Sequence record: PV806337.1
Source of the DNA: a phage
Strand: one strand, 5' to 3'
DNA: 64,000 nt
Shown here: in pieces, positions 4,342-38,628 of the stretch
Layout of the letters: every line of letters begins with the position of its first letter
Numbering within the stretch: position 1 is the stretch's first letter
Translations under genes and position numbers: made by a program
The notes under the pieces: model-generated
Database searches by the model: none
Told to the model about the DNA's origin: nothing
Seen by the model: the letters and a program-made list of their open reading frames with translations, nothing else

Positions 4342-4367
4342 AGTAGCTCCTCAGTTATTTAGGACTA

Positions 4368-5258
4368 TTATACCAAATCTTTAAGCGATTCAGCAACTAA
4401 AATTTCAATACGTTTTGCTAACGTATCGACTTCTTCTTTATTTAAATCACCAGGATCCTTACCCTCTGGAAGTAAGAAGTTAGCAACTACAGGTGTTAAA
4501 CGTGTTTTTGTACGGATTAGTTTAGCCAGTGCTTGCGCAGCTTTATTACCAGAAGCATCATTATCTAGTAAGATAACAACAACTTTTACACCGGCAATAA
4601 TATAAGGACTGAACTTATCTGCAATGTTATCTGAAGTAAACTGATGTGTACCAAAGCAGCAAGAAGTATAGTCTATACCATTATCCTCTAGGTTCAGCAT
4701 ATCAAAGATGCCTTCAACTAGAATAAGAACTGGAGTATTATATCGTACAGGAAAAATTGGCGGTGAAACTTGTTTTGGTTTTACTAAGTATTTAGGAGGG
4801 GCAGAACTGTTTATAGAACGACCCAAAAATAGGATATTGCGTCCAACAGCATCTGTGATTGGGAATACAATTCTGCCTTCCCAGTCTGCTTGGTGTTGGA
4901 AAGCAAAATATTTCTTCAAGGTCTTAGAACTTATACCTCGGAAATCACCTTCGAAAAGGCAAGCAGATTCAGGAATTGCAAGATTCGTTGATCCATTCCT
5001 AATCTCTGAAATCTTTTTACGTACTTGCGATAGCCTTGGGGACTGTCGGTACTGAGTCTCATTAAAATAATGGTAAATGCTCGGTATACCTTTACCGAAG
5101 CCACAACTCAAGCAGTGCATAATACCTGTTTCAGGGTCAATACGCAAACTTGGGTGTTTATCGTCATGATCTGGATTGAGACAACAGATGAGGATGTCCC
5201 CACCTGTGTCTTTATATTCAATGCCTTTCAGATCAAGTAGTTCTGTTATTCTACTCAT
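4368..5258 (-). CDS. DNA primase (DnaG-like: CHC2 zinc finger + Toprim)
   Basis: Zinc finger CCLNPDHDDKHPS...HCLSCG; Toprim Glu (LILVEGIFD) and DxD (ILLDNDASG). Confidence 0.8.
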   Translation of the reverse strand: MSRITELLDLKGIEYKDTGGDILICCLNPDHDDKHPSLRIDPETGIMHCLSCGFGKGIPSIYHYFNETQYRQSPRLSQVRKKISEIRNGSTNLAIPESACLFEGDFRGISSKTLKKYFAFQHQADWEGRIVFPITDAVGRNILFLGRSINSSAPPKYLVKPKQVSPPIFPVRYNTPVLILVEGIFDMLNLEDNGIDYTSCCFGTHQFTSDNIADKFSPYIIAGVKVVVILLDNDASGNKAAQALAKLIRTKTRLTPVVANFLLPEGKDPGDLNKEEVDTLAKRIEILVAESLKDLV

Positions 5259-6778
5259 ATATCGCTGGCCTGTTCACCTGTTGAATTTTCAGTTTTGTCT
5301 TTCTTAGCACGTTTAGGTTGAGCCGGCTTATCCTTCTCAATAGGGATAACGAACTCAGCTTCCATTTGAGATATATCTTCCATTGCTAGATTGGTAGTGT
5401 TATCCATCCGCAGGGTTTCCCAGTTCATTTTAGGCATAAACTTCACGCTATCAGAAGAACGAGTCTTAACGAAGTCAAACATAATAGCACCTTGACCATT
5501 ATCAGCTTTTGCAGCATTAAGATTAGCAGCCATGTCTGCGGAATCAAGAATCCCCTTTGACATACGTGTTCTACCATCTTGATCGATCTGGTAAGGAGCT
5601 ACGCCAGCCACGTTATGTTTCTGGCAGATGGATTTGAAAGACGAGCTAACAACCATCTGTTCTTTCCAGTCATACATATCAATGGTTTTAGAATCTGGAA
5701 GTCGGGTTTGGTTAATATAGTCCAGTAAAGCTACTGTAACTTTATCACCATATCTAGCAACTAATTTATTTAATTCTACGTCAACTGTTGTAATGGACAG
5801 TTCAGGGTCATAAACGATAATCATAGGAGTATGTAGTTCATACCCTTCTATTAGCTTACTCTCCATATCGTAGAAATCACTCATCTTAGCCATTGTATAC
5901 TGTTTAACGAAGTTATCGAAAAGCTCTTCACCACCGTTGAACATTCTAGCTCTAGTTCTGGCTAATCTCAATAGAGCTGCACCTTCTAGAGTATTATTAC
6001 GCATTGCTAGTGCTGATACCCCGGCTAACATGGCTAGATTACGTCTAAATACTTCATGTTCTTTCATCTCAATTGAGAAGTATGGAGCAATATCTCCATT
6101 CAAATATTGCTGAACCTGTATGTTTGAACAGATAATGGATTTACCAGTACCACGCCAACCACCAAGCAGTAACGTTTCTGTGCGAGCTAAACCAATTTGA
6201 GCGTCGAACTCATTACAAATACCAAGAGCGATTAAGTTCAGTTTGGTATCTTCTTCTCTCTGGAAAATACGCATGTTATCTGCGTTGAATACTTTTCCAG
6301 TATTCGTTACTTTCTCTTCTAATTTTAAGTGAAGGGAGGCAACTCGGTTGAGAATTTCTCCCTGATCCAGCATTGTTAAATCTTGAAGCACGTCTGTTTC
6401 TAGAAGCTTCAGGAATAAATCCTGTGTATATTCAGCCTCTAGGACTTCAAGTGCCTGTTCCATGCTCACTTCTGGAATTTGAGTGTTAGCTAAGACGACT
6501 AGAGCTTGAGAAAGGCGGGCGTTCCTATTAGCTTCAAGCATAAGTGCGTCAATGGACGGCATTGTGTTATATTTTTTATAATAATTCTGGACGGCTTGGT
6601 AAATTGAGGAGAAAGCGTCATTAAAATGATCTTTATGCAGTTTTGAGAATGTTTCCAATGCTATTTGCTTCTGTTCGGAAGCTAGAAGCATCTTCAACAC
6701 TACAGCTTGCACGTTAAACAAGGTCATTCTCCTTTGCACGCTTTCGTGCCTTCTAAATGCAAAAAGGGGAAGGAGCAT
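5255..6778 (-). CDS. replicative DNA helicase (DnaB/RecA-fold, 507 aa)
   Basis: Walker A GGWRGTGKS; directly upstream of primase in same operon; strong RBS (AAGGGGAGGGGG) before ATG 6778. Confidence 0.7.
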   Translation of the reverse strand: MLLPLFAFRRHESVQRRMTLFNVQAVVLKMLLASEQKQIALETFSKLHKDHFNDAFSSIYQAVQNYYKKYNTMPSIDALMLEANRNARLSQALVVLANTQIPEVSMEQALEVLEAEYTQDLFLKLLETDVLQDLTMLDQGEILNRVASLHLKLEEKVTNTGKVFNADNMRIFQREEDTKLNLIALGICNEFDAQIGLARTETLLLGGWRGTGKSIICSNIQVQQYLNGDIAPYFSIEMKEHEVFRRNLAMLAGVSALAMRNNTLEGAALLRLARTRARMFNGGEELFDNFVKQYTMAKMSDFYDMESKLIEGYELHTPMIIVYDPELSITTVDVELNKLVARYGDKVTVALLDYINQTRLPDSKTIDMYDWKEQMVVSSSFKSICQKHNVAGVAPYQIDQDGRTRMSKGILDSADMAANLNAAKADNGQGAIMFDFVKTRSSDSVKFMPKMNWETLRMDNTTNLAMEDISQMEAEFVIPIEKDKPAQPKRAKKDKTENSTGEQASDI

Positions 6779-6800
6779 AGCCCCCTCCCCTTAGGTTTAA
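6764..6800 (-). promoter_or_regulatory. hairpin plus T-run spanning RBS and start codon of the DnaB-like helicase gene
   Basis: Minus-strand AAGGGGAGGGGG-CTATGCT-CCTTCCCCTT then TTTTT; start codon lies in the loop. Confidence 0.45.
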
Positions 6801-6809
6801 TTTACCAGA

Positions 6810-7577
6810 TTATTCAGCAGCCGCAGCTTTTGCATCCAGTTTAGCACGCTTAGCGGCACCATCATAGTCCTTAGCAACCAGACCACGACGAGACAGCATA
6901 GATTTAACACCGCGCTCAGACTTACCAGTTTTCTCAGCGATCTCAGCAACAGTCATGTTAACCAGATCCAGACCTTCTAACAGATCTTCACGAGTTTTAG
7001 CACTTGAGGTTTCCTGTACCGGCATAGCAGCGATACGACCTTCACGAAGCAGGCTCAGAGCTTTACCGCGGATCTGCTTAATATTACGACCGAAGTGAGC
7101 AGCGATAGCTTCAATAGTAGCACCAGCAACAACCTGATTAACAAAATCAGTTTCTTCATCTGGAGTGAAGGAACGAACAGCAGCAGCTTTTTCGGTTGGC
7201 TTAACAGAAGCGGTCATTTCCAGACTCAGAATCTTACCCTGTACCTGCTTAGCACCGAACTGACCACCAGCCACAGCAGCAGCGATTTCAGCATAGGTAT
7301 ACTGACCAGCATGAGCGTTCAGGAAATCAACCAGTTCAGCTTCCTGCTCAGGAGTCCACGGGGATTTCTGTACTTCGTTAGCTTTCTGTACTTCAAAACC
7401 TTCTTTACGCAGTTTAGAGCCAACAGAGCGAGCGGTAACATCTTTGCCAGTTTCAGCGGCCAGTTCAGCAGCGATAGCAGCTACTTGTTCTTGAGAGATT
7501 ACAGCAACACCCAGAGCAGTGGCTTTTGCTTTCAGAGACTCGGTTACACCTTCTACGTTCCAGTTCAGTTTAGACAT
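6810..7577 (-). CDS. DNA-binding protein with three internal HTH-like repeats (T5 D5-like)
   Basis: Three repeats (YAEIAAAVAGG..., IEAIAAHFGRNIKQIRGKALSL, VAEIAEKTGKSERGVKSMLSRRGL); Ala-rich; sits in replication module. Confidence 0.6.
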   Translation of the reverse strand: MSKLNWNVEGVTESLKAKATALGVAVISQEQVAAIAAELAAETGKDVTARSVGSKLRKEGFEVQKANEVQKSPWTPEQEAELVDFLNAHAGQYTYAEIAAAVAGGQFGAKQVQGKILSLEMTASVKPTEKAAAVRSFTPDEETDFVNQVVAGATIEAIAAHFGRNIKQIRGKALSLLREGRIAAMPVQETSSAKTREDLLEGLDLVNMTVAEIAEKTGKSERGVKSMLSRRGLVAKDYDGAAKRAKLDAKAAAAE

Positions 7578-30476: not shown

Positions 30477-31178
30477 ATGAAAGTAAAACCATTTGGTATG
30501 CTAGATATTGAATCTCTGGGAACTCCAGGAGATTGTGGTACTACTCATATCGCAATGCCTTCTTTCGCTTTTGTGGCTATGCATGGAATTGATAAAGACC
30601 CTGATCTAATATTTGTTACTTTGGATGTACAAGATCAGCTTAATTCTGGTGCCAAAGTTACAGCATCTACTCTAGCATTCTGGATGGATCAAGCTAAAAA
30701 TAGCCCGTCTGCTATCCACATTATGGAAGCTATGAAGGAACGTAATCCAAAACTGATTGCCTTCCAAAATGGTAAACATCATTGCACTAATAAACTCGGC
30801 TCTAACTATGCTGCCTACTCTATGGCTAAAAATATTATGGAGTTGGCTTTAGGCGAAAATGCTTTGTATTATGGAAACGGTCCAGAGTTTGATATGACTA
30901 TCTACTCTGCAAACACGTTCCATGCTGGAACCAATGAAGAGGTAGTTCCGTGGAAATTCTGGAATTTGGGTAATGTTCGATCTCTTCGTAACCTCTGGAT
31001 GCAGGCTGGATACAGTTATAAAGCTCTAGAGACCGAAGGTATTAGCTGGGCAATAGCTAAAATGGAGAAGATGGACACCATTCGTTATGGGATCTATCCG
31101 GTTAAGCACGACCCAGCATTTGATGCCTTAGTTGAGAGCTATTGTGTTGCAGCTATGATCGAAAAAATGAAAATTTGA
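30477..31178 (+). CDS. DEDDh-family 3'-5' exonuclease-like protein
   Basis: Exo I-like MLDIESLG and Exo III-like HDPAFDALVE. Confidence 0.6.
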   Translation: MKVKPFGMLDIESLGTPGDCGTTHIAMPSFAFVAMHGIDKDPDLIFVTLDVQDQLNSGAKVTASTLAFWMDQAKNSPSAIHIMEAMKERNPKLIAFQNGKHHCTNKLGSNYAAYSMAKNIMELALGENALYYGNGPEFDMTIYSANTFHAGTNEEVVPWKFWNLGNVRSLRNLWMQAGYSYKALETEGISWAIAKMEKMDTIRYGIYPVKHDPAFDALVESYCVAAMIEKMKI

Positions 31179-31179
31179 T

Positions 31180-31208
31180 TTGCTTCCGGCTCCAAAATTC
31201 TGTATAAT
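31180..31208 (+). promoter_or_regulatory. T5-type promoter
   Basis: -35 TTGCTT, 17 bp, -10 TATAAT upstream of 31249. Confidence 0.7.
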
Positions 31209-31248
31209 ATATTCATAAATTTGAGAAAACAATAAAAGGAAAACAAAT

Positions 31249-31431
31249 ATGCCAGTATCTAAAAATGTTCGTAAAAATGGTAAGAAAGCTACTCGTAATC
31301 TGGGTATCCGTCGTATGGCTGAACGTCAATCAGGTATCCAGAAAATCTTTGATCTGCTAAATCGTGCTAATCCTAAAATTGATAACAGTAACGATACTGT
31401 TCTGCGCACTCTGCTGGCAATTGGTCTGTAA
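31249..31431 (+). CDS. hypothetical small basic protein (60 aa)
   Basis: Track ORF with own promoter. Confidence 0.5.
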   Translation: MPVSKNVRKNGKKATRNLGIRRMAERQSGIQKIFDLLNRANPKIDNSNDTVLRTLLAIGL

Positions 31432-31484
31432 TAGACCAACTTTAAACAAATTCAAATCTCAAACTTCATATAAGGAAGCAAATA

Positions 31485-32123
31485 ATGACTACTCGTATCT
31501 CTAAAACTCGCGCTCTGGCAACTATCAAATCTCTGGAAGCTAAAATCCGTAAAGCTACTGAACAACAGCTTCTGATCGCTGTTGGTGAAGGTAAGGATAA
31601 AAATAAGGTTGTAGTTGGCGCTGCAATCGAAGTAGATGATTTATCTGAGCGTATTAAGACAGATTTCCAGTCCCTGCTGGATATGATGTCCCAGCGTGAT
31701 CGTATCAAAGCTGCTCTGATTAAGAGCAATGCAGAAACGATCGTTGAGATAGGCTCTCGTAAAATGACTGTTGCGGAAGCAATTGAAGCTAAGCGTTCTA
31801 TGGAACTTAAAGCCCAACTGCTGGCTAACATGCGTAAGCAGTTCCATGCCGCCACGGTTAAGTTTAATACGCAGAAAGCACAGTTTGATGCTAAATATGA
31901 GCGTTTGCAGGATAGCATGGCTACCCGTGATAAGAAAACTTCCGAAGATGAAGTTAAAATGCAGCTCAACCTGCTGGAACTCAAGAATACTCCATTCTTG
32001 ATTGATCCGCTGGAACTGGAGAAGCTGATTAAGCAGCATGACGAGGAATACCAGGACTTTGCAACAAATGTTGATTTTGTTCTGTCCGAGTCTAACGCCT
32101 CTACCTTCATTGAAGTAGAGTAA
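31485..32123 (+). CDS. hypothetical protein (212 aa), coiled-coil-rich
   Basis: Track ORF with RBS AAGGAAG; antisense track ORFs look spurious. Confidence 0.6.
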   Translation: MTTRISKTRALATIKSLEAKIRKATEQQLLIAVGEGKDKNKVVVGAAIEVDDLSERIKTDFQSLLDMMSQRDRIKAALIKSNAETIVEIGSRKMTVAEAIEAKRSMELKAQLLANMRKQFHAATVKFNTQKAQFDAKYERLQDSMATRDKKTSEDEVKMQLNLLELKNTPFLIDPLELEKLIKQHDEEYQDFATNVDFVLSESNASTFIEVE

Positions 32124-32506
32124 TAATTTAAAAGCTAGTAAATCGGTAGACGAAAGCCCAAGCATCTTACCTCGCAGCAGCGGTTGAAATACGAGGTTAA
32201 ATAAGACCGCTGACCATACTATAAAGTATAATCTATTGGAGATTATGTTTATTACACCAGCCTTTTAAGCTGACACGTAAGAACAAAGCGTCGTTGATAT
32301 TACCGACACAACTTCAAAGATCAACATTTAAGTATGAAAGCTGAAAAGTTTAAAGAACTCAAACTTCTAAACTTCTAAAGCTAAAAGATGCAAAGTATTC
32401 GTTGATGATTCAAACCCTAGATCAAAGGTACATGGCTCATAAGATATGGCCTGTGGCGCCTCTAGGCTGTTTATCGGTTTACTAGTTTCACAATTTAAAA
32501 ATGTAT

Positions 32507-32535
32507 TTGCTAATTTACTAAGTTATCTGTATAAT
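32507..32535 (+). promoter_or_regulatory. T5-type promoter
   Basis: -35 TTGCTA, 17 bp, -10 TATAAT upstream of 32566. Confidence 0.7.
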
Positions 32536-32565
32536 ATATTTTTAAATTGATGAAACGAGGCTATT

Positions 32566-32883
32566 ATGACTTTTCATATTTTGATTGATGATGTGCGTAA
32601 TCTTCACGGAATGGATATTATCATTCGAACCCCAGAAGCCGCTGTAGAGTTTCTGAATAAAACTGATACCACCGGCCATTTCGTTTATATGGATAATGAC
32701 TTGGCTGTAGATGGTATGGAAGGTTATCAAATTCTTCGTTTACTCTTAGAATTTGGGCAGAGACCAAAGAAAGTGGTACTAGTAACCTCGAACCCAGTAG
32801 CTAAGCAAAATATGCGTAATGATTTGCTTGACTTAGGGTATAAAGAAAATCCCAATCGTGTTGAATATGATTGGCAGGAGTAA
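32566..32883 (+). CDS. hypothetical protein (105 aa), possibly receiver-like fold
   Basis: Track ORF with own promoter; acidic residues ILIDDV...MDNDL; weak. Confidence 0.5.
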   Translation: MTFHILIDDVRNLHGMDIIIRTPEAAVEFLNKTDTTGHFVYMDNDLAVDGMEGYQILRLLLEFGQRPKKVVLVTSNPVAKQNMRNDLLDLGYKENPNRVEYDWQE

Positions 32884-32888
32884 AAAGA

Positions 32889-33338
32889 ATGAAGGCAGCT
32901 TTGCTTTTAGTAGCTGCCCTTACCTTCAGCTTTAGTAGTCAGGCATCGCACGATGCAAAAGAAATAGATTGCATTGCTAAAAATATCTATTTCGAAAGTC
33001 GTGGTGAGGGCATAAAGGGAATGACGGCGATTGCACATGTTACTAAAAACCGTGTAAACTCCGGTAAATTCCCAGATTCCTACTGTAAAGTAGTATATCA
33101 GTCTAACCAGTTCTCTTGGGTATCTAAGAGACCAAAAGTTGATAAAACTGATGAGGCTTGGCAAACCGCTAAGAATTTAGCTAGAGTGATATACTACGTT
33201 GATTTACCACAAGATCCTACATATGGAGCACTATACTTCCATAGTGGTAAAGATAAACCTTACTGGACAAAGAAGTTTAAGAAAACAACTAAGATTAAGG
33301 GACATACATTCTATAAACCTGTTGTCACTAAAACTTAA
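32889..33338 (+). CDS. secreted cell-wall hydrolase, SleB/CwlJ-like
   Basis: Signal peptide MKAALLLVAALTFSFSSQA; block NIYFESRGEGIKGMTAIAHVTKNR typical of SleB-type hydrolases. Confidence 0.6.
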   Translation: MKAALLLVAALTFSFSSQASHDAKEIDCIAKNIYFESRGEGIKGMTAIAHVTKNRVNSGKFPDSYCKVVYQSNQFSWVSKRPKVDKTDEAWQTAKNLARVIYYVDLPQDPTYGALYFHSGKDKPYWTKKFKKTTKIKGHTFYKPVVTKT

Positions 33339-33346
33339 AAATTTAC

Positions 33347-33375
33347 TTGCTTAGCTACTTAAATTTCTGTATAAT
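33347..33375 (+). promoter_or_regulatory. T5-type promoter
   Basis: -35 TTGCTT, 17 bp, -10 TATAAT upstream of small ORF 33407. Confidence 0.7.
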
Positions 33376-33406
33376 ACTTTCATAAATTAATGAGAGGAAG
33401 CGAAAT

Positions 33407-33577
33407 ATGAAATCAGTTGTAATTATTGGTGTTAACACTCGCGGTATTCGTACTACGAAAACTGTTAAAACTTCTAACGTTGCTGAAATAACTACGAACC
33501 CTAAAAAGTTTGATTTCGCCAAAGTCTCAGCAGTTATGACAGAACAATCTTTTAACCAAGCATTGGGGATGAAATAA
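33407..33577 (+). CDS. hypothetical small protein (56 aa)
   Basis: Not in track (<60 aa); T5-type promoter and RBS GAGAGGAAG upstream; stop overlaps next start. Confidence 0.4.
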   Translation: MKSVVIIGVNTRGIRTTKTVKTSNVAEITTNPKKFDFAKVSAVMTEQSFNQALGMK

Positions 33578-34011
33578 TGGGTGAAAATATTCTAATGACC
33601 CTTCGTGGACTACTTAGTCTAGCACGTACTCACGGTGATAAGGAACGGGCACTTAATCTTCAGACCATGATTGGTGATCTGCAACGTATTGATAAAGACA
33701 TTGTTACTCGAACCGAGTTCGTAGCCTATCTGAAAGCTCAGATTAAGGCTCTAGAAAATGCAAAACAACGCGCTATTAAAGTTGGTATGGAAGTTCCTAC
33801 TGATGTAGACTATGAGCAACTGCTTTATTCCATGCTGCAAGAGTATCAGCCAAGTCAACTGACTGAGGTTCAGATTCGTGAGTATTTTGCAGAACTGGTT
33901 AAATTAAACCCAGGTATTACCAAAGCTCTATTAATGAAAACTATTAAGGCAGAATTTCCCGGACGTTATGACGGTAAAACAACTGCTTTGATTGCTAGTG
34001 AATTTTTCTAA
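33577..34011 (+). CDS. hypothetical protein (144 aa)
   Basis: Track ORF. Confidence 0.55.
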   Translation: MGENILMTLRGLLSLARTHGDKERALNLQTMIGDLQRIDKDIVTRTEFVAYLKAQIKALENAKQRAIKVGMEVPTDVDYEQLLYSMLQEYQPSQLTEVQIREYFAELVKLNPGITKALLMKTIKAEFPGRYDGKTTALIASEFF

Positions 34012-34019
34012 AAATTCAT

Positions 34020-34048
34020 TTGCTAAATGCTTATAAATTCTGTATAAT
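34020..34048 (+). promoter_or_regulatory. T5-type promoter driving an about 800-nt non-coding transcript ending in tRNA-Arg
   Basis: -35 TTGCTA, 17 bp, -10 TATAAT; no ORF with RBS until 34955. Confidence 0.7.
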
Positions 34049-34270
34049 ATATTCATAAATTAGGGAACAGCGAGCCGATTACGCTGAGTGCAGAATCCCA
34101 ACCGGAGCGCATTGAATAGAGTCGGTGGGTTAGTTGTAAAACTAGTACACAGGGGGCGGCAATCCCGGTTAGTGGCTAGAACGTGTAAAATGAGGCGTCT
34201 GAAACCTCTCCCCTAAACTCTTCTCTGATTTATAAATAGTGGGGTGTGGAAATCACTTATGTAGTAACAC

Positions 34271-34342
34271 TGCCGTCCTAGTATAATTGGTATTATCAAG
34301 CCGTAACTGGTGGAAGATGTAGGTTCGAATCCTACGGTCGGT
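34271..34342 (+). ncRNA. degenerate tRNA-like fragment (T-arm and acceptor only)
   Basis: T-arm GTAGG-TTCGAAT-CCTAC and 6/7-bp acceptor GCCGTCC/GGTCGGT, no convincing anticodon arm, no CCA. Confidence 0.3.
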
Positions 34343-34845
34343 AAGAACTGGATAACTGATGCTTTTAACATAAAAGCTTCCGAGGTTAGTTGCGCACTGC
34401 CTAAACCACGCGGTAGTTGGTTCCAGACTAACCAACCAGTCTGCTGAATAGTTTTATTACGATTTAACTATGTCCAGGCTAAAGAAGAACTTTAGAAGGT
34501 ATTCTAGGATAGTGAAGTTCTTTCTCCATATCGGAGTAGTTTTTCAAGCTATCCACAAAGTGGGAAATGCTGACATGAGAGATGTCACTAATGGTGCACA
34601 ATAGCACAGGTAATTCGCGATAACTCCTGTTGAGTAGCAGCAAAAGGTGGGAAGTCATGACCCCAAGCCTAACCGAGTCCTCAATATACCGCAGGACATA
34701 ACCACTAAGTCACCCTGACTTAAACTGGAAAATAATAGACGTTACTGTATTTTGTCTTGAAATACTTAATGAGTGAGACTTATGACTCTCCCGGTATCGT
34801 CTGTATTTTTAAGAGTTTTTACGAGAGTTCTTAAAAATACTTAAA

Positions 34846-34920
34846 CGGGGTGTAGTCTAAGGGAGAGGCAGGAGTCTTCTAAATTCCTTTATGCAGGTTC
34901 GAATCCTGTCACCTCGGCCA
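34846..34920 (+). tRNA. tRNA-Arg (anticodon TCT)
   Basis: Acceptor CGGGGTG/CACCTCG, anticodon stem GGAGT/ATTCC with loop CTTCTAA, T-arm GCAGG-TTCGAAT-CCTGT, encoded CCA. Confidence 0.8.
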
Positions 34921-34954
34921 ATTTTATTAACTGTAACTAAAACAAAGGAAATAT

Positions 34955-35902
34955 ATGTTTGCTACTAAAAATATGAAAGAACTGACTTCTGAGCAGAAAG
35001 TAATTCGTACTATTAAACGTTGGGGTATTGGTGCTGTAGTTGGTTTAGCAGGTTTAATCCTAGCTTTTAATTCATATACTATTGTTTCTGATGGTACGGT
35101 TAAAACCCAAACATTCCTGGGTAAAGTAGACCCTAATCCAGTATTGCCGGGCTTCCATCTTGTAAACCCGTTTGCATCTTTCGATACTTTTAGTACAAAA
35201 GATATTGCTGTAAAATTAGATAAACTTCAGGTTCCTAGCCAGGATAAGTTTAAATCCACTGTTGACCTGACTGTTATGTTGCAGTTTGATGGTTCTAAAG
35301 CACCGATTAACCGTATTAACGCAGGTACTCAGGATCAGGCACTAGACAAGTATGTAACTGAAAAATTACTGTCTACTATTCGTGAGTTTGGTAAGTCTGT
35401 ACCTAAAGCACAAGATTTATTTGATGCTAAAATTCAGGCTCAATTGCAAACTGCAATTCAACAGGAAGTTGAAGAGTATGCGCGCCCATATGGTTACACA
35501 GTTAAGCAGGTATTCCTTCAGGATATTACCTTGCCGCCAGTAATCATGGAACAGGTACAGAATACCAAAGTTCGTGAAGAGCAAGTTAATGCTGCGAAAG
35601 CTGAACTTGCTCGCGTTGAACAGGAAGCACAGCAAAAAGTTAAACAAGCAGAAGCAGATCGTGAAGCTCGTAACAACCAAGCTATTGCTAATGAACGTGA
35701 CGCAGATGCTAAACTGTACGCAGCTAAGAAAGAAGCTGAAGCTAACGCCGCATTGCAACGTACCATTACTCCTGAAATGATTCGTTGGAAACAACTGGAA
35801 GTTGAAATGATCCGTGCTCAGAAGTATCAAGGTGGTGTACCTCAGACTGTGGTAGGTACTGGCTACGATGGTCAAATGATCATGGATATGCGTAACAAGT
35901 AA
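34955..35902 (+). CDS. SPFH/band-7 (stomatin/prohibitin-like) membrane protein
   Basis: N-terminal TM (WGIGAVVGLAGLILAF), SPFH-like core, long Ala/Glu/Gln coiled coil. Confidence 0.65.
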   Translation: MFATKNMKELTSEQKVIRTIKRWGIGAVVGLAGLILAFNSYTIVSDGTVKTQTFLGKVDPNPVLPGFHLVNPFASFDTFSTKDIAVKLDKLQVPSQDKFKSTVDLTVMLQFDGSKAPINRINAGTQDQALDKYVTEKLLSTIREFGKSVPKAQDLFDAKIQAQLQTAIQQEVEEYARPYGYTVKQVFLQDITLPPVIMEQVQNTKVREEQVNAAKAELARVEQEAQQKVKQAEADREARNNQAIANERDADAKLYAAKKEAEANAALQRTITPEMIRWKQLEVEMIRAQKYQGGVPQTVVGTGYDGQMIMDMRNK

Positions 35903-35925
35903 TAGTTACACGTAATCTTCGAACC

Positions 35926-35960
35926 AAGCCCGCGTTTCCTACGAGAGCGCGGGCTTTTCT
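35926..35960 (+). terminator. rho-independent terminator after SPFH gene
   Basis: AAGCCCGCG ... CGCGGGCTT followed by TTTCTGTATTT. Confidence 0.7.
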
Positions 35961-35970
35961 GTATTTAAGG

Positions 35971-36015
35971 CAAAAGAAAAAGCCCCTTACCTTTCGGCAG
36001 GGGCTTTTGTTTTTG
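35971..36015. terminator. bidirectional terminator between convergent units
   Basis: AGCCCCT-TACCTTTCGGC-AGGGGCT flanked by A-run upstream and T-run downstream. Confidence 0.65.
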
Positions 36016-36221
36016 GTTTAGAACCATACTCTCGGTGTACAGCAACCACCCATACGGGAGGCCAATCTTGACTGAAAATCTACTCTAGGGGGCAGGATAA
36101 GAGTAGGCTTAAAGGCAAAGGGATTGAACGCCGGTATTTGCGTAAACATTGCTGGAGAGCAACAACGTGCTACAGGCACTGGGCAGCACGAAACAGATTT
36201 TCTGCAACACATATTTCCTCC

Positions 36222-36638
36222 TTAGGAGTTACTACCCCCATTTTGAGCTTTTGCAACTTGGCTTTGGCAGAAGCTATTAAACTTACCCATAAGTGATACA
36301 AGCTGTTTCCCATCCTCTGTCTTTGCGAAGTCTTCGAAAAGGGCTAGTACTGCCTGTCCTTCCGCAGAAACCTGCGGTTGTTGGGTTTGTTGCTGAACTT
36401 GCTGCTGAGGCACCTGTTGCTGCATTTGTTGAGGCATTTGCGACTGCCCGCTCATTTGCTGCATCATTTGCATAGGACTCACACTTCCAGGGTTTTGCTG
36501 GAGTTGTTGCTGCATCTGTTGCGCTTCTGCTAAACGCTGTTGCAACTGTTGTAAGTAGGGGTTATCCAGACCCGGAATGGGCTGCTGGGAGCCCATACTT
36601 TGATTAAGTCCGTTATTTACAAAACCATATTTACTCAT
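36222..36638 (-). CDS. Gln-rich low-complexity protein (138 aa)
   Basis: Track ORF; extreme Q/M/P composition (QQMQQQLQQ...). Confidence 0.5.
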   Translation of the reverse strand: MSKYGFVNNGLNQSMGSQQPIPGLDNPYLQQLQQRLAEAQQMQQQLQQNPGSVSPMQMMQQMSGQSQMPQQMQQQVPQQQVQQQTQQPQVSAEGQAVLALFEDFAKTEDGKQLVSLMGKFNSFCQSQVAKAQNGGSNS

Positions 36639-36659
36639 AATGGGCTCCTCCCCTTAATA

Positions 36660-37649
36660 TTAAGCCGGCAGTTTAGCCTGCAGACCAGCCAGAGTCTGAG
36701 TGATAGCACCAAGACTTAAAGCGATTTGATTAATTACCTGACCGTTAGCACCGCTACCCGCAGCGATTGCTTCACGTAGGCGACATGCGTCTAACTCATC
36801 CTGGATACGCGCAGTAGTTACACCAGCGATCGCAGTCTGAAGTTCACAGCAACATTCAGCGATCTGACGTTCCAGAGAGTTCTGGTTAGCACACATCTGA
36901 GCCTGAACAGCGGCAAACTGGTTATTAGTTTGTAAAGTCTGCTGGAAAGCGATCTGTGCAGAATCAAACTTATCTTGTGCACGAGCTATCTGGTTAGCTG
37001 CGAAAGATTGATCAATCTGGCGAGAAAGATCGAACTGACCCTGAATAACGTTGCGAGTTTCCTGGCAGATCTGATTAGACAGATTAGCACCTGTACCGTA
37101 GATCGTAGTTAGTACAGACTGAGTATCACGGCTCTGGTTTTGGGTTGTCTGGCTAAAACCATTGTTAACTGCGCTTAAAACAGCTCCAGTACCCTGGTTA
37201 GCCTCTGTACGAGTAGTGTTGATAGCTGCTAGAATACTAGCGGTATCTTGGTTCTGAAGTACTGCATCAACTGCGGTACCTTCACCAACTACACCACGTC
37301 CACCGAATCCACCGAAACCACCGAATCCGCCGGTTAATAGAGCACCGATTAGGATAGCTCCGAATAGTCCCATACCTTCACCACCGAAAGCACCTGCGTT
37401 TGCTGGGTAACCACCCAGTAGGCCAGGGAAGCCACTAGTGAATACGTTTACTGGTTCTTGCATTTTATGTTTTCCATATTTATGACAATGTTCATCATCG
37501 TCATCTTCTTCTTCATCATCGTGTTCACGATGTTTTTCTTCGTAGGCTCTGACCTTCTCCCACTTTTTCTTATCTGATTCCTCGTGACGGTGCAGTTCTG
37601 CTGCAACGCTAGCGACGGTCTCAGGACTCTTAGCTACTTCTTCTGTCAT
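36660..37649 (-). CDS. membrane protein with His/acidic N-terminus, Gly-rich TM and Q/N/T-rich C-terminus
   Basis: Likely start M21 of track ORF with RBS AGGAGGTG; HREHDDEEEDDDDEH block; GALLTGGFGGFGGFGG; own sigma70-like promoter. Confidence 0.55.
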   Translation of the reverse strand: MTEEVAKSPETVASVAAELHRHEESDKKKWEKVRAYEEKHREHDDEEEDDDDEHCHKYGKHKMQEPVNVFTSGFPGLLGGYPANAGAFGGEGMGLFGAILIGALLTGGFGGFGGFGGRGVVGEGTAVDAVLQNQDTASILAAINTTRTEANQGTGAVLSAVNNGFSQTTQNQSRDTQSVLTTIYGTGANLSNQICQETRNVIQGQFDLSRQIDQSFAANQIARAQDKFDSAQIAFQQTLQTNNQFAAVQAQMCANQNSLERQIAECCCELQTAIAGVTTARIQDELDACRLREAIAAGSGANGQVINQIALSLGAITQTLAGLQAKLPA

Positions 37650-37711
37650 ATTTTGACACCTCCTAGTATATAGAAAATGTGTGTCTCTTTGATCACTCAT
37701 CCATAACATAT

Positions 37712-37740
37712 ACTTTACACTACCCCAGCGAAAATGTCAA
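37712..37740 (-). promoter_or_regulatory. sigma70-like promoter for antisense island gene
   Basis: -35 TTGACA, 17 bp, -10 TAAAGT on minus strand; lacks the T5 early promoter downstream box. Confidence 0.5.
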
Positions 37741-37856
37741 GGGGTCTTTAAAAATTGCCCCCGGATTTTTAGTGGGGTCACAAATTTTGGTCCTCCCCAC
37801 TTATCTGCTACCCTTAAGTGCCCTATGATTTTCCTCTAAAAAGTTAAAAAATTTGA

Positions 37857-37885
37857 TTGCTTGAATGCTAAATTCTCTGTATAAT
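37857..37885 (+). promoter_or_regulatory. T5-type promoter for Toprim gene
   Basis: -35 TTGCTT, 17 bp, -10 TATAAT. Confidence 0.7.
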
Positions 37886-37915
37886 ATATCTATAAATTTG
37901 AGAGAGGAACCAAAT

Positions 37916-38434
37916 ATGAATGTTGATGAGCTAACACAGCACCTCTTATCCAGAGGATTTGATACAGATAAATATCATTGCTGGTTAAGTCCGGAAGGAT
38001 GGCTAACAGTCCCGTTGTATGACTTCTCCGGGATGTTGCGAGGCTATCAGACGTATAATCCTTCTGCTCCAAAAGGTCATGGTAAGTGTCCCTTTGAAGC
38101 TAAATATTTTACTTATTCTACTACCCAGTGTGTATGGGGACTAGAAACTCTCAATGGAGATGAAAAAGTAGTATTGATCGCTGAATCTGTATTTAAGGCA
38201 GTTGCGCTACATAACGCTGGTTATCCAGCCCTGGCAATGTTAGGTTCTTCTCCAGGAAAAGCGTTATTAAAGCAACTGAAATTATTACCTTTTAAATTGG
38301 TAGCTGTCGGAGACAACGATCCTGCGGGTGAAAAATTTGCTAGAAAATTAAACGGCTTTGTTTCTCCCGTAGATGTGGATGAGATGTCTACCGAAAACTT
38401 GAAAAATTTTCTTGCTATGAAGCTAAATTTCTAA
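37916..38434 (+). CDS. Toprim-domain protein (possible RNase M5-like/primase-like nuclease)
   Basis: Toprim Glu (VVLIAESVFKAV) and DxD (AVGDNDPAGEKFARKL); likely start M18 of track ORF. Confidence 0.6.
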   Translation: MNVDELTQHLLSRGFDTDKYHCWLSPEGWLTVPLYDFSGMLRGYQTYNPSAPKGHGKCPFEAKYFTYSTTQCVWGLETLNGDEKVVLIAESVFKAVALHNAGYPALAMLGSSPGKALLKQLKLLPFKLVAVGDNDPAGEKFARKLNGFVSPVDVDEMSTENLKNFLAMKLNF

Positions 38435-38440
38435 TATAAT
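38412..38440 (+). promoter_or_regulatory. T5-type promoter directly upstream of tRNA-Ser
   Basis: -35 TTGCTA, 17 bp, -10 TATAAT; tRNA starts about 16 nt after -10. Confidence 0.65.
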
Positions 38441-38455
38441 ATATCTTATAAATTC

Positions 38456-38544
38456 GGAAGAATAGCATAACGGTATTGCAGCAGATTGCTAATCTGTCGG
38501 TTTGAAATATAGCCTTGTGGGTTCGATTCCCACTTCTTCCGCCA
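38456..38544 (+). tRNA. tRNA-Ser (anticodon GCT), long variable arm
   Basis: Acceptor GGAAGAA/TTCTTCC, anticodon loop TTGCTAA, T-arm GTGGG-TTCGATT-CCCAC, CCA; T5-type promoter directly upstream. Confidence 0.8.
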
Positions 38545-38550
38545 AATTCT

Positions 38551-38628
38551 GGTTCTCAAGCTCATATGGTATGAGCACCCGGCTCATAACCGGAAGGTAC
38601 GTAGGTTCGAATCCTCGGGGAGCCACCA
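38551..38628 (+). tRNA. tRNA with CAT anticodon (Met/fMet/Ile2), non-canonical T-stem
   Basis: Acceptor GGTTCTC/GGGAGCC with G-U pairs; anticodon loop CTCATAA; T-loop TTCGAAT with bulged stem; CCA. Confidence 0.55.

What the first reader, a model, noticed from the sequence alone, without database searches (positions are those of the whole stretch)
36018..37740. Antisense two-gene island with extreme composition and its own non-T5 promoter
In an otherwise plus-strand region, two minus-strand genes sit between a bidirectional terminator and a TTGACA/TAAAGT promoter. One encodes a protein with a His/Asp/Glu-rich N-terminus, a GGFGGFGGFGG glycine-zipper membrane segment and a Q/N/T-rich tail with a CCC triplet. 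The other is almost pure Gln/Met/Pro repeats. This is unlike the surrounding early genes and looks like a moron or effector pair, possibly membrane-targeting or condensate-forming.
Basis: partly seen in the sequence, partly recalled or inferred. Interest (0 to 1): 0.6.

Follow-up and report, generated by a model that had tools for sequence, protein, structure and literature searches.

The report
Dispensable three-gene membrane-protein operon of T5
This is the already-annotated but never-characterised T5.077-078-079 operon of T5-like phages. It is a self-contained, dispensable three-gene unit whose main product is a membrane-anchored coiled-coil protein, and that protein belongs to a large phage family of unknown function marked by an invariant Cys-Cys-Cys motif.

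Summary
The window is a T5-like phage and the island is the annotated T5 operon T5.077-T5.078-T5.079. Its promoter is P12 (TTGACA-17-TAAAGT) and it ends at a bidirectional terminator. 077 and 078 are under purifying selection (omega about 0.1-0.2). A third, Cys-rich 64-aa ORF (079, starting MCC) is kept in distant relatives.

About half of T5-like genomes lack the operon. At least two independent deletions leave remnants of it. The viable T5 st0 and T5Mos mutants also lack it. It is therefore a non-essential accessory unit, ancestral in the family and lost repeatedly, rather than a fresh insertion. The same three-gene set occurs in the unrelated Pseudomonas phage KPP23.

P12 differs from the 26 stereotyped early promoters in the window but resembles T5 promoters P-K28b and P-J5. 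No Pfam, NCBIfam, PADLOC, PDB or fold match exists. 077 belongs to a family of at least 1,000 clusters. These share a Gly-rich hydrophobic anchor, a long helix and an invariant CCC.

Function is untested. My best guess is a membrane-anchored complex with a conditional envelope or competition role. Canonical holin, endolysin and spanins lie elsewhere. Interest is moderate.

The parts
37712..37752 (-). Promoter P12. The -35 TTGACA is at 37735-37740 and the -10 TAAAGT at 37712-37717. A conserved upstream block TTTAAAGACCCC precedes them.
   Evidence: Consensus scan. Annotated as promoter P12 in T5 NC_005859 and in phage 5 AJ604531. Unique in the window. Conserved in the distant contig L008.
37650..37711 (-). 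5' untranslated leader with the ribosome-binding site AGGAGG of gene 077. Positions 37664-37723 are 100% identical in five Tequintavirus and Epseptimavirus comparisons.
   Evidence: Sliding identity, RBS. The predicted fold is no more stable than shuffles (z = -0.72).
36660..37649 (-). Gene 077 (T5.077 homologue, 329 aa). It has a charged N-terminal helix, an acidic/His-rich linker, a Gly-rich hydrophobic anchor, a long Q/N/T-rich helix with CCC, and a conserved C-terminal helix.
   Evidence: ORF. PHROG 8119, E = 8e-205, function unknown. omega 0.08-0.19. AlphaFold helices 9-45, 137-274, 280-298 and 303-326 at mean pLDDT 64.
37299..37379 (-). Gly-rich hydrophobic segment EGMGLFGAILIGALLTGGFGGFGGFGG (residues 91-117). 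It is the predicted membrane anchor, with a run of small residues at i, i+4 spacing: G94-A98-G102-T106-G110-G114.
   Evidence: Kyte-Doolittle 19-residue maximum of 1.72 at residues 94-112. Invariant Gly and Leu columns. Remote homologues have strongly hydrophobic segments at this position.
36846..36854 (-). Codons for the Cys266-Cys267-Cys268 triplet.
   Evidence: Invariant in alignments A1 and A6. In A5, C266 is invariant and C267 and C268 are at least 90% conserved. Present in at least 90% of the 111 remote members of A7 and in 132 of 143 library representatives.
36222..36638 (-). Gene 078 (T5.078 homologue, 138 aa). It has a conserved N-terminal motif NPYLQQLQQRLAEAQ, a Q/M/P-rich linker of variable length (residues 29-90), and a conserved C-terminal domain AVLALFEDFAKTEDGKQLVSLMGKFNSFCQS.
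   Evidence: ORF. PHROG 7894, function unknown. Alignment A3. omega 0.08-0.32. No hydrophobic segment (maximum KD19 0.45).
36018..36212 (-). Gene 079 (T5.079 homologue, 64 aa). It is Pro- and Cys-rich with four vicinal CC pairs, starts MCC, and has the strong RBS AAGGAGG.
   Evidence: ORF. Annotated in T5 and phage 5. A positional, MCC-starting counterpart exists in L008, L009 and KPP23. The selection signal is ambiguous.
35975..36012 (.). Bidirectional intrinsic terminator that ends the operon: AAAAAGCCCCTTACCTTTCGGCAGGGGCTTTTGTTTTT.
   Evidence: Folds on both strands. Annotated as 'efficient bidirectional rho-independent transcription terminator' in T5 and as ter1 in phage 5.

Best explanation
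The island is the T5.077-T5.078-T5.079 operon of T5-like phages (Demerecviridae). It is one autonomous transcription unit that runs from promoter P12 to a bidirectional terminator.

Shown:
- All three ORFs are conserved as a set.
- 077 and 078 evolve under purifying selection.
- The unit is dispensable for lytic growth and has been lost repeatedly.
- The same gene set occurs in an unrelated Pseudomonas siphophage.

Inferred mechanism:
- gp077 is anchored in the inner membrane by its Gly-rich hydrophobic segment.
- It self-associates through that small-residue zipper and through its helix of about 140 residues, forming an elongated rod.
- The invariant Cys triplet cross-links the subunits or binds a ligand.
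- The charged N-terminal extension, which only the T5-type and KPP23-type long forms have, stays in the cytoplasm. There it recruits the two soluble, signal-less partners gp078 and gp079. These two genes occur only with the long forms.
- The complex alters the infected cell's envelope in a way that helps only under some conditions. The most likely role is excluding or competing with other phages or mobile elements, or countering a membrane-associated host response.
- It has no part in core replication, assembly or lysis.
For: - Identity: the region is 100% identical to T5_ev212 and SUT_E520. It is annotated as P12, T5.077-079 and a terminator in NC_005859, and as ORF 327aa/138aa/64aa in AJ604531.
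- Coding: omega is 0.08-0.19 for 077 and 0.08-0.32 for 078. All three genes have strong ribosome-binding sites.
- Set conservation: both larger proteins occur in exactly 223 phage records. The three genes are in the same order and antisense orientation in L008 and L009, where 077 is 36-43% identical. The triplet in Pseudomonas phage KPP23 is bracketed by terminator-like hairpins.
- Dispensability and loss: the cassette is absent from Shivani, which keeps a remnant of P12. It is absent from Gostya9, which keeps a remnant of 079. It is deleted in T5 st0 and truncated in T5Mos (PMC11464382).
- Membrane anchor: the hydropathy maximum is 1.72. Remote family members have clearly hydrophobic segments at the same place, before the CCC motif in 60 of 60 cases.
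- Rod shape: AlphaFold predicts helix 137-274 at pLDDT 70-87.
- The N-terminal extension co-occurs with 078 and 079. Short homologues (240-270 aa) lack all three and have other neighbours.
- Not the lysis machinery: holin, endolysin and Rz-like spanins are annotated elsewhere in MM-1, a phage that matches the 2-kb cassette query at 100.0% identity with a slightly lower score.
Against: - No experiment and no homology to any characterised protein supports the envelope or competition role. Pfam, NCBIfam, PADLOC, PDB sequence search and Foldseek all returned nothing.
- Topology is unresolved. In 87 of 113 family members the N-flank of the hydrophobic segment is more acidic than the C-flank. By the positive-inside rule this favours a cytoplasmic C-terminal domain.
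- AlphaFold gives no confident structure for the anchor (pLDDT below 50).
- The KPP23 N-terminal extension does not align with the T5 one. The idea that it docks 078 and 079 is therefore weak.
- A pattern-based scan of 185,579 bacterial genomes found no relatives. Known exclusion genes are often prophage-borne, so this is unlike them.
- Interaction among the three proteins is inferred from co-occurrence alone.
Confidence: 0.35

Rival explanations
1. The complex is a cytoplasm-facing thiol- or metal-binding membrane scaffold. The short or acidic N-terminus faces outward, and the long helix with CCC lies in the reducing cytoplasm. There it works with the Cys-rich gp079 and the Gln-rich gp078. 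The cysteines bind a metal or cofactor, or act as a redox sensor.
For: - Charge bias across the hydrophobic segment favours a C-in topology in 87 of 113 members against 4.
- 078 and 079 have no signal peptide or hydrophobic segment.
- 079 has four vicinal CC pairs.
- 46 of 182 family members end in Cys/Pro/Gly-rich tails such as GCGCG. T5.079 resembles these tails weakly: 7.1 bits, reached by 1 of 500 shuffles.
- His-rich stretches occur in the 077 N-terminus, for example HHYHHHHHEH in Epseptimavirus forms. They also occur in the neighbouring gene of eiAU and RCIP0096.
- The neighbouring gene shows weak Ferritin-domain hits in metagenomic relatives (E = 6e-4 and 0.045).
Against: - A C-in topology would require exporting the 90-residue N-terminal extension of T5.077. 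It carries 12 Lys/Arg and has no signal peptide.
- The His-rich tract is not conserved in the distant Demerecviridae forms.
- The resemblance between 079 and the tails fails for the KPP23, L008 and L009 ORFs.
- The ferritin hits are below Pfam thresholds.
Confidence: 0.2
2. The operon is an accessory lysis or membrane-fusion module. gp077 acts like an inner-membrane spanin or a class-I-fusion-like protein, with an N-terminal anchor and a periplasm-spanning helix that folds back at a Cys-containing turn. It modulates envelope disruption.
For: - Architecture: a hydrophobic Gly-rich segment beginning GLFGAI, a helix of about 140 residues, a break at residues 275-279 just after C253...CCC, then two shorter helices.
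- A helix of this length is comparable to the width of the periplasm (own knowledge).
- A SleB-like hydrolase gene lies about 3 kb away in T5, L008 and L009.
- Some distant homologues lie near VanY/M15 endolysin and holin genes.
Against: - There is no outer-membrane partner. 078 and 079 lack a signal peptide and lipobox (sequence).
- Canonical holin, endolysin and overlapping Rz-like spanins are annotated elsewhere in the MM-1 genome. A T5-like lysis cassette with spanins is also described for Shivani, which lacks this operon (PMC4342426).
- Deletion mutants lyse and form plaques.
- The charge bias argues against a periplasmic C-terminal domain.
Confidence: 0.1
3. The island is a recently acquired moron that encodes a toxic effector pair, which either targets the membrane or forms condensates.
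For: - It has its own promoter and terminator.
- It shows a GC island and a presence/absence polymorphism.
- The C-terminal half of 077 is 60% identical to a Pseudomonas phage protein, which implies horizontal transfer between phage families.
- It contains low-complexity Gly-, Gln- and Asn-rich sequence.
Against: - The operon sits at the same locus and in the same orientation, with a conserved promoter, across deeply diverged Demerecviridae.
- The GC3 of 077 equals the genome background.
- Cassette-free genomes show deletion scars, so they lost it rather than never having it.
- There is no PADLOC or toxin-family match.
- The low-complexity linker of 078 varies in length, while the flanking conserved domains carry the constraint.
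Confidence: 0.1
4. Only 077 and 078 are genes. The '079' stretch is a conserved untranslated 3' region, either an RNA element or a DNA element, and not a protein.
For: - Synonymous divergence in 079 is 3-8 times lower than in 077 and 078 for the same genome pairs, and omega is erratic at 0.15-1.7.
- Many annotations omit it.
- The distant versions have an odd composition rich in Ser, Pro and Phe.
Against: - An ORF of 60-69 codons starts ATG-TGT-TG(T/C) directly after 078 and follows a strong Shine-Dalgarno sequence. It is kept in L008, L009 and KPP23 although the nucleotide sequence there is otherwise unalignable.
- No Rfam match reaches a gathering threshold.
Confidence: 0.15

Closest known systems
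Morons, the accessory transcription units of lambdoid phages such as those in HK97 and lambda (own knowledge)
   Same: The unit has its own sigma-70 promoter and its own intrinsic terminator. It lies between two genes of a conserved backbone, is present or absent among relatives, is dispensable, and has a distinct bulk base composition.
   Different: The phage is virulent, so there is no lysogen for the unit to benefit. The unit is ancient at this locus in Demerecviridae and has been lost by deletion, not recently inserted. The GC3 of its main gene matches the genome.
T5 llp (annotated in NC_005859 as lpp, T5.158), the lytic-conversion lipoprotein that blocks FhuA
   Same: It is another small T5 accessory unit with its own promoter, read divergently from its neighbour. 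It is variably present in T5-like phages (PMC4342426) and acts on the envelope of the infected cell.
   Different: Llp is a single lipoprotein with a signal peptide and lipobox, and its promoter is of the stereotyped early type. 077-079 show no sequence similarity to it, have no lipobox, and use a different promoter type.
Inner-membrane spanin Rz and class-I-fusion-like helical hairpins
   Same: Both have an N-proximal hydrophobic anchor followed by long helices with conserved cysteines and a predicted break or turn.
   Different: There is no outer-membrane lipoprotein partner. The canonical spanins are encoded elsewhere in the same genome. 077 has a 90-residue cytoplasmic-type N-extension and is not needed for plaque formation. 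There is no sequence or fold match.
Membrane-anchored phage exclusion or organiser proteins, such as T4 Imm and Sp, HK97 gp15 and phi29 p16.7 (own knowledge)
   Same: These are small, non-essential proteins with a single hydrophobic anchor and a helical domain, made by the infecting phage.
   Different: There is no detectable homology. The unit here is a three-protein set with an invariant CCC motif. The resemblance is one of general design only and was not tested.
PHROG 8119, 7894, 9288 and 16490 (phage protein families of unknown function)
   Same: 077 matches PHROG 8119 over its full length (E = 8e-205) and 078 matches PHROG 7894 (E = 1e-79). Short homologues match 9288, 16490 and 8119.
   Different: These families carry no functional annotation, so membership says nothing about mechanism.

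Membership tests
T5.077-079 operon of Tequintavirus | Same genes in the same order, between the primase-like gene (T5.076) and the SPFH gene (T5.080), with P12 and the bidirectional terminator | tested here: met
   100% DNA identity to T5_ev212 and SUT_E520. The feature tables of NC_005859 and AJ604531 map one-to-one onto the window.
Moron | Own promoter and own terminator flanking the inserted gene(s) | tested here: met
   P12 consensus match. The terminator folds on both strands. Both are annotated in T5.
Moron | Present or absent between otherwise syntenic relatives | tested here: met
   The SPFH flank is in 437 records and the cassette proteins in 223. Shivani and Gostya9 lack the cassette.
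Moron | Foreign base composition that indicates recent acquisition | tested here: not met
   Bulk GC is 47% against 39%, but the GC3 of 077 is 0.35 against a background of 0.33 +/- 0.05. Only 078 (0.45) lies above the background maximum of 0.43.
Moron | The absent state is the ancestral empty site (insertion rather than deletion) | tested here: not met
   Shivani keeps a degraded P12 and leader. Gostya9 keeps fragments of 079. The cassette is present at the same locus in Demerecviridae with 36-43% protein identity.
Two-component spanin (Rz/Rz1) | Inner-membrane subunit with an N-terminal transmembrane domain and a periplasmic coiled coil | tested here: inconclusive
   A hydrophobic segment and a long helix are predicted. 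However, a 90-residue N-extension precedes the anchor and the charge bias favours a C-in topology.
Two-component spanin (Rz/Rz1) | Partner outer-membrane lipoprotein with a signal peptide and lipobox, encoded overlapping or adjacent | tested here: not met
   078 and 079 have no N-terminal hydrophobic signal (maximum KD19 0.45 and 0.97) and no L-x-x-C lipobox.
Two-component spanin (Rz/Rz1) | Acts as the phage's spanin, with no other spanin in the genome | tested here: not met
   Holin, endolysin and two overlapping Rz-like spanin genes are annotated elsewhere in MM-1, a phage that matches the 2-kb cassette query at 100.0% identity with a slightly lower score. The operon is deleted in viable T5 st0.
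Glycine-zipper transmembrane segment | Repeated small-xxx-small (GxxxG-like) spacing within a hydrophobic helix | tested here: met
   G94-A98-G102-T106-G110-G114 at i, i+4 spacing, plus G107/G111 and G113/G117. These Gly columns are invariant in A1. Membrane insertion itself was not tested.
Known anti-phage defence or anti-defence protein families (PADLOC) | Profile match to a defence-system component | tested here: not met
   No PADLOC family at E <= 1 for 077, 078, 079 or the SPFH neighbour.
Superinfection-exclusion membrane proteins | Blocks entry or development of a second phage | not testable with these tools
   This family is defined by phenotype and has no shared sequence signature. No homology was found.
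T5 early promoter class | Stereotyped A-tract, TTGCTT -35, TATAAT -10, ATATT discriminator and ATAAATT | tested here: not met
   The alignment of annotated T5 promoters shows that P12 lacks all of these elements except a partial ATATG. The ATATT rule is from PMC7472727.

The most novel reading that the evidence does not exclude
gp077 is the T5 representative of a large, unnamed family of phage membrane-anchored coiled-coil proteins with an invariant Cys-Cys-Cys motif. The family has at least 1,000 clusters at 50% identity and no Pfam model. In this reading it would constitute a previously unrecognised type of phage machine: a thiol- or metal-dependent membrane device with detachable Cys-rich and Gln-rich subunits, acting on the host envelope or on incoming competitors by a mechanism unlike holins, spanins or known exclusion proteins.
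Probability: 0.2. Interest if true: 0.7.

Novelty: new member of a known kind. Interest (0 to 1): 0.42.

Why it matters
T5 is a model phage, yet this operon in its classic 'deletable region' has had no proposed function since it was annotated in 2004. Four results make it an accessible entry point to a widespread unknown family:
- It is a conserved three-gene set, not a two-gene oddity.
- It has been lost repeatedly but is under purifying selection where it is kept.
- It is shared with an unrelated Pseudomonas phage.
- Its main protein belongs to a family of more than 1,000 clusters with an invariant CCC motif.

Natural and laboratory deletion strains (T5 st0, T5Mos, Shivani-like phages) already exist for phenotype tests. 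Accessory genes with this evolutionary pattern often govern phage-phage or phage-defence conflicts. If the function proves mundane, the result still corrects annotations: the third ORF is often omitted, and it is annotated in the wrong frame in KPP23.

Tried and rejected
- Pfam, NCBIfam and PADLOC scans of 077, 078 and 079 gave nothing above threshold. The only hits were weak compositional ones to RIFIN.
- PHROGs returned only families of unknown function.
- A PDB sequence-profile search gave nothing below E = 1.5.
- Two AlphaFold runs gave mean pLDDT 52 and 64. Foldseek against PDB and BFVD gave nothing below E = 1.6; the top hit was the vimentin rod, which is not significant.
- Rfam found no family at gathering score in 35800-37900. 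Only terminator-like sub-threshold hits appeared. There are no tRNAs in the island.
- The 5' leader fold is no more stable than shuffles.
- hhalign of the 078 family against the Gln-rich, HTH-like proteins next to short 077 homologues showed no relationship (probability 0.2%).
- The hydrophobic periodicity of the 077 helix does not exceed shuffles.
- A scan of 185,579 bacterial genomes with the short-homologue profile confirmed no relatives. It rested on a single peptide pattern, so sensitivity was limited.
- A Pfam scan of 111 remote family members found no shared domain.
- A profile test of 079 against the Cys-rich C-terminal tails of family members was borderline for T5.079 and negative for the other three ORFs.
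- The Bas33 RNA-seq and proteome dataset (PMC13250531) could not be used. Gene coordinates show that Bas33 lacks the cassette.
- Literature searches for T5.077, T5.078, T5p075 and similar names found no paper that discusses these genes.
Full report
**What the window is.** The 2-kb stretch around the finding is 100% identical to Escherichia phages T5_ev212 and SUT_E520. It is 97-99% identical to many Tequintavirus genomes. In the T5 reference NC_005859 the same segment is annotated as promoter P12, CDS T5.077, T5.078 and T5.079, and an 'efficient bidirectional rho-independent transcription terminator'. It lies between the primase-like gene T5.076 and the SPFH-domain 'lipoprotein' T5.080. The phage 5 record AJ604531 names the same elements: P12, ORF 327aa, ORF 138aa, ORF 64aa and ter1, each ORF with a ribosome-binding site. 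The feature is therefore already in public annotation, but only as hypothetical proteins. A full-text search for the gene names found no paper that discusses them.

**Check of the observation.**
- The minus-strand ORFs are at 36660-37649 (329 aa from the ATG behind the AGGAGG site), 36222-36638 (138 aa) and 36018-36212 (64 aa).
- The promoter-like site TTGACA-17-TAAAGT is at 37740-37712.
- The hairpin at about 35975-36012 has an A-run on one side and a T-run on the other. It folds at -23.7 and -22.9 kcal/mol on the two strands.
Only residues 29-90 are Q/M/P-rich (68%). Both ends are conserved and non-repetitive.
- GC is 47-48% across the island against 39% for the window. For 077, however, this comes from codon positions 1 and 2 (Gly, Ala). 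Its GC3 is 0.35 against 0.33 +/- 0.05 for 28 long ORFs of the window.

**Are they genes?**
- Across T5, ESCO30, EH3, Stitch and STG2, 077 has dS 0.10-0.71 with omega 0.08-0.19. 078 has omega 0.08-0.32. Both are clearly coding.
- 079 is odd. Its protein is almost invariant in Tequintavirus and Epseptimavirus. Yet its dS is 3-8 times lower than in its neighbours, and omega ranges from 0.15 to 1.7.
- An ORF of 60-69 codons follows directly after 078 in two distant Demerecviridae contigs (L008, L009) and in Pseudomonas phage KPP23. It begins ATG-TGT-TG(T/C) (Met-Cys-Cys), sits behind a strong Shine-Dalgarno sequence and contains further CC pairs.
- The nucleotide sequence in those three cases is otherwise unalignable. 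In KPP23 the deposited annotation uses a different frame.
- No Rfam family reaches threshold.
- I conclude that 079 is most likely a real small protein with an additional, unexplained nucleotide-level constraint in T5-like phages.

**Distribution and history.**
- By tblastn, 077 and 078 each occur in exactly 223 phage records, with identical organism breakdowns. The flanking SPFH gene occurs in 437 records. About half of T5-like genomes therefore lack the cassette.
- Shivani has only 285 bp between the two flanking genes. It retains a degraded copy of the P12 -10 region and leader but not the genes. Only 10 records share that junction.
- Gostya9 has a different junction that retains fragments of 079 and lacks P12. 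These are independent deletions.
- The laboratory strain T5 st0 lacks the whole region. T5Mos (deletion of 30661-38625) lacks P12 and the 5' part of T5.077 and still grows (PMC11464382).
- Metagenomic Demerecviridae contigs whose 077 is only 36-43% identical keep the three genes antisense to all their neighbours.
- The unit is therefore old in this family, dispensable, lost repeatedly, and constrained where it is kept.
- Pseudomonas phages KPP23 and RSP (63 kb, unrelated) carry the same triplet. The C-terminal half of their 077 is 60% identical, and the triplet is bracketed by terminator-like hairpins. The set has thus moved between phage families as a unit.

**The promoter.**
- The annotated T5 promoters of this region are strikingly uniform: an A-tract, TTGCTT, a 17-nt spacer, TATAAT, ATATT and ATAAATT.
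- A loose version of this pattern occurs 26 times in the window against 0.16 expected. Klimuk et al. report ATATT as the mark of T5 early promoters (PMC7472727).
- P12 shares none of this architecture. It has TTGACA, a G+C-rich spacer and TAAAGT, and its pattern is unique in the window.
- It is not alien to T5, however. P-K28b has the identical TTGACATTTTCGC block, and the validated late promoter P-J5 also uses TTGACA with a non-TATAAT -10.
- The P12 region and leader (37664-37783) are 97-100% identical in all five comparisons, more conserved than the genes themselves.
- The core TTTTAAAGACCCCTTGACATTTT...TGTAAAGTATA survives in L008. L009 keeps TTTTAAAG, TTGACA, a 17-nt spacer and TAGAGT.
- This points to specific regulation. 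The temporal class of P12 is unknown.

**What the proteins are.**
- None of the three matches Pfam, NCBIfam or PADLOC. PHROGs 8119 and 7894 have unknown function.
- A profile of 077 homologues found 79 proteins in the indexed search. In the exhaustive search it found 1,081 cluster representatives at E <= 1e-3 (210 at <= 1e-10, 47 at <= 1e-30).
- Typical members are about 240 aa. They have a short acidic N-tail (median 25 residues) and a hydrophobic segment, often unmistakably membrane-like (for example WIILIFLFFLAF). After this come a Gly-rich stretch and a Q/N/S/T-rich helical region of variable length.
- The conserved core reads Q.A.CCC..K.AI...G..TRALI, and its CCC is nearly invariant. A quarter of members end in Cys/Pro/Gly-rich tails.
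- No Pfam domain is shared by 111 remote members.
- Members occur in Edwardsiella phage eiAU (gp08, directly after the tail genes) and Klebsiella phage RCIP0096. They also occur in many metagenomic phage contigs with a recurring set of small neighbours.
- AlphaFold with 56 sequences predicts a confident N-terminal helix (residues 9-45, pLDDT 88-97) and a disordered linker and anchor. It then predicts helix 137-274 (pLDDT 70-87), a break just after the CCC region, and two shorter helices.
- Foldseek finds no significant neighbour.
- 078 consists of a conserved N-terminal helix motif, a Q/P/M linker of variable length and a conserved 42-residue C-terminal domain.

**How it probably works.**
- *Shown:* a co-inherited three-gene unit, a hydrophobic anchor in the family, an elongated helical protein with invariant cysteines, and non-essentiality.
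- *Inferred:* gp077 sits in the inner membrane and oligomerises through its small-residue zipper (G94-A98-G102-T106-G110-G114) and its long helix.
- *Inferred:* the T5-type N-terminal extension and the two signal-less proteins gp078 and gp079 occur together and are absent together from short homologues. I therefore take them to be cytoplasmic partners.
- *Inferred:* repeated loss combined with purifying selection is typical of conditionally useful host- or competitor-interaction genes. I favour an envelope-level exclusion, competition or counter-defence role (confidence about 0.35).
- *Main alternative:* a cytoplasm-facing thiol- or metal-binding scaffold. It is supported by a strong charge bias (N-flank more acidic in 87 members, the reverse in 4), the vicinal cysteines, His-rich tracts and weak ferritin-like neighbours. 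It is hard to reconcile with the charged 90-residue N-extension.
- *Spanin or fusion-like role:* suggested by the architecture. It fails the partner-lipoprotein test and is redundant with the canonical holin, endolysin and Rz-like spanins annotated elsewhere in the MM-1 genome, a phage that matches the 2-kb cassette query at 100.0% identity with a slightly lower score (PMC4342426).
- *Recent-moron or toxin model:* contradicted by the deep conservation and the deletion scars.

**Verdict.** The finding is real and accurately located. It is structurally a moron-like autonomous unit, but it has three genes, is ancient rather than newly acquired, and is already annotated in T5. Its function is unknown. 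The new points here are:
- the conserved third gene;
- the transfer to Pseudomonas phages;
- the recurrent independent losses;
- the unusually conserved, atypical promoter;
- membership of 077 in a large unnamed CCC-motif family.

Interest is moderate at 0.42. It would be higher if the family proves mechanistically new.

Noticed in passing
window 37664-37783: The P12 promoter and the 5' leader of 077 are 97-100% identical across Tequintavirus and Epseptimavirus genomes whose 077 coding sequence has dS 0.35-0.7. The promoter core is also kept in contig L008, where the 077 protein is only 36% identical. This suggests an operator or a regulatory RNA. The predicted leader fold is no more stable than shuffles.
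   Followed up: partly
window 35926-35956 (GCGC at 35947): The plus-strand terminator of the SPFH gene contains the T5 nick consensus (Pu-GCGC). It corresponds to the annotated 'major DNA single-chain interruption' at T5 39746/39747. One of T5's fixed nicks therefore lies inside a terminator hairpin directly beside this operon.
   Followed up: partly
window, 26 sites from 3979 to 58573: The stereotyped T5 early-type promoter (TTGC-N19-TATAATA) occurs 26 times against 0.16 expected. The sites are on the minus strand up to about 18.9 kb and on the plus strand from 21.6 kb onward, which marks a divergence point in early transcription.
   Followed up: no
L005 (Pseudomonas phage KPP23, AB910392) 4936-5118: The third cassette gene of KPP23 (MCCNQPVPQCC..., 60 aa) is not annotated. 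The deposited ORF072 (locus 4938-5132, GTG start) is in another frame and is probably a mis-call.
   Followed up: partly
window 36018-36212: ORF 079 has much lower synonymous divergence than the two genes upstream in the same genome pairs. Two alternative C-terminal endings (CCTPRVWF and CCNKSIWF) are distributed mosaically among phages.
   Followed up: partly
L019 (eiAU) 6529-6894; L020 (RCIP0096) 5511-5831; L015 7179-7748; L017 7083-7598: Genes next to short 077 homologues encode small proteins with a His-rich N-terminus (HHHYYH, HKHHH). They also encode proteins of about 175 aa with weak Ferritin-domain similarity (E = 6e-4 and 0.045). This echoes the His-rich N-terminus of T5-type 077.
   Followed up: partly
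proteins P0183-P0367 (family members): 46 of 182 CCC-family members end in Cys/Pro/Gly-rich tails such as ..RPCPVPAYITCSPY..GCGCG. T5.079 (CCPVPVARCCSP...GGCC) resembles them weakly. This raises the possibility that 079 is a detached version of that tail.
   Followed up: partly
L008 6573-8206: In a distant Demerecviridae contig, the gene convergent with the cassette is not SPFH. Instead there is a 190-aa protein that looks LemA-like by eye, with an N-terminal hydrophobic helix, followed by a 353-aa multi-pass membrane protein. Membrane proteins thus flank the cassette in both lineages. The LemA-like assignment was not checked against any library.
   Followed up: no
L024 (T5 NC_005859) 4367-4441 and 37911-37985: T5 promoter P-K28b shares the exact block TTGACATTTTCGC with P12. 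The late promoter P-J5 also has TTGACA with a TATACT -10. This hints at a second, minor promoter class in T5.
   Followed up: partly
window 34955-35902: The neighbouring gene (T5.080) is a Band 7/SPFH-domain protein (Pfam E = 2e-17). It is widely annotated as 'lipoprotein' and is kept in nearly all T5-like phages whether or not the cassette is present.
   Followed up: partly
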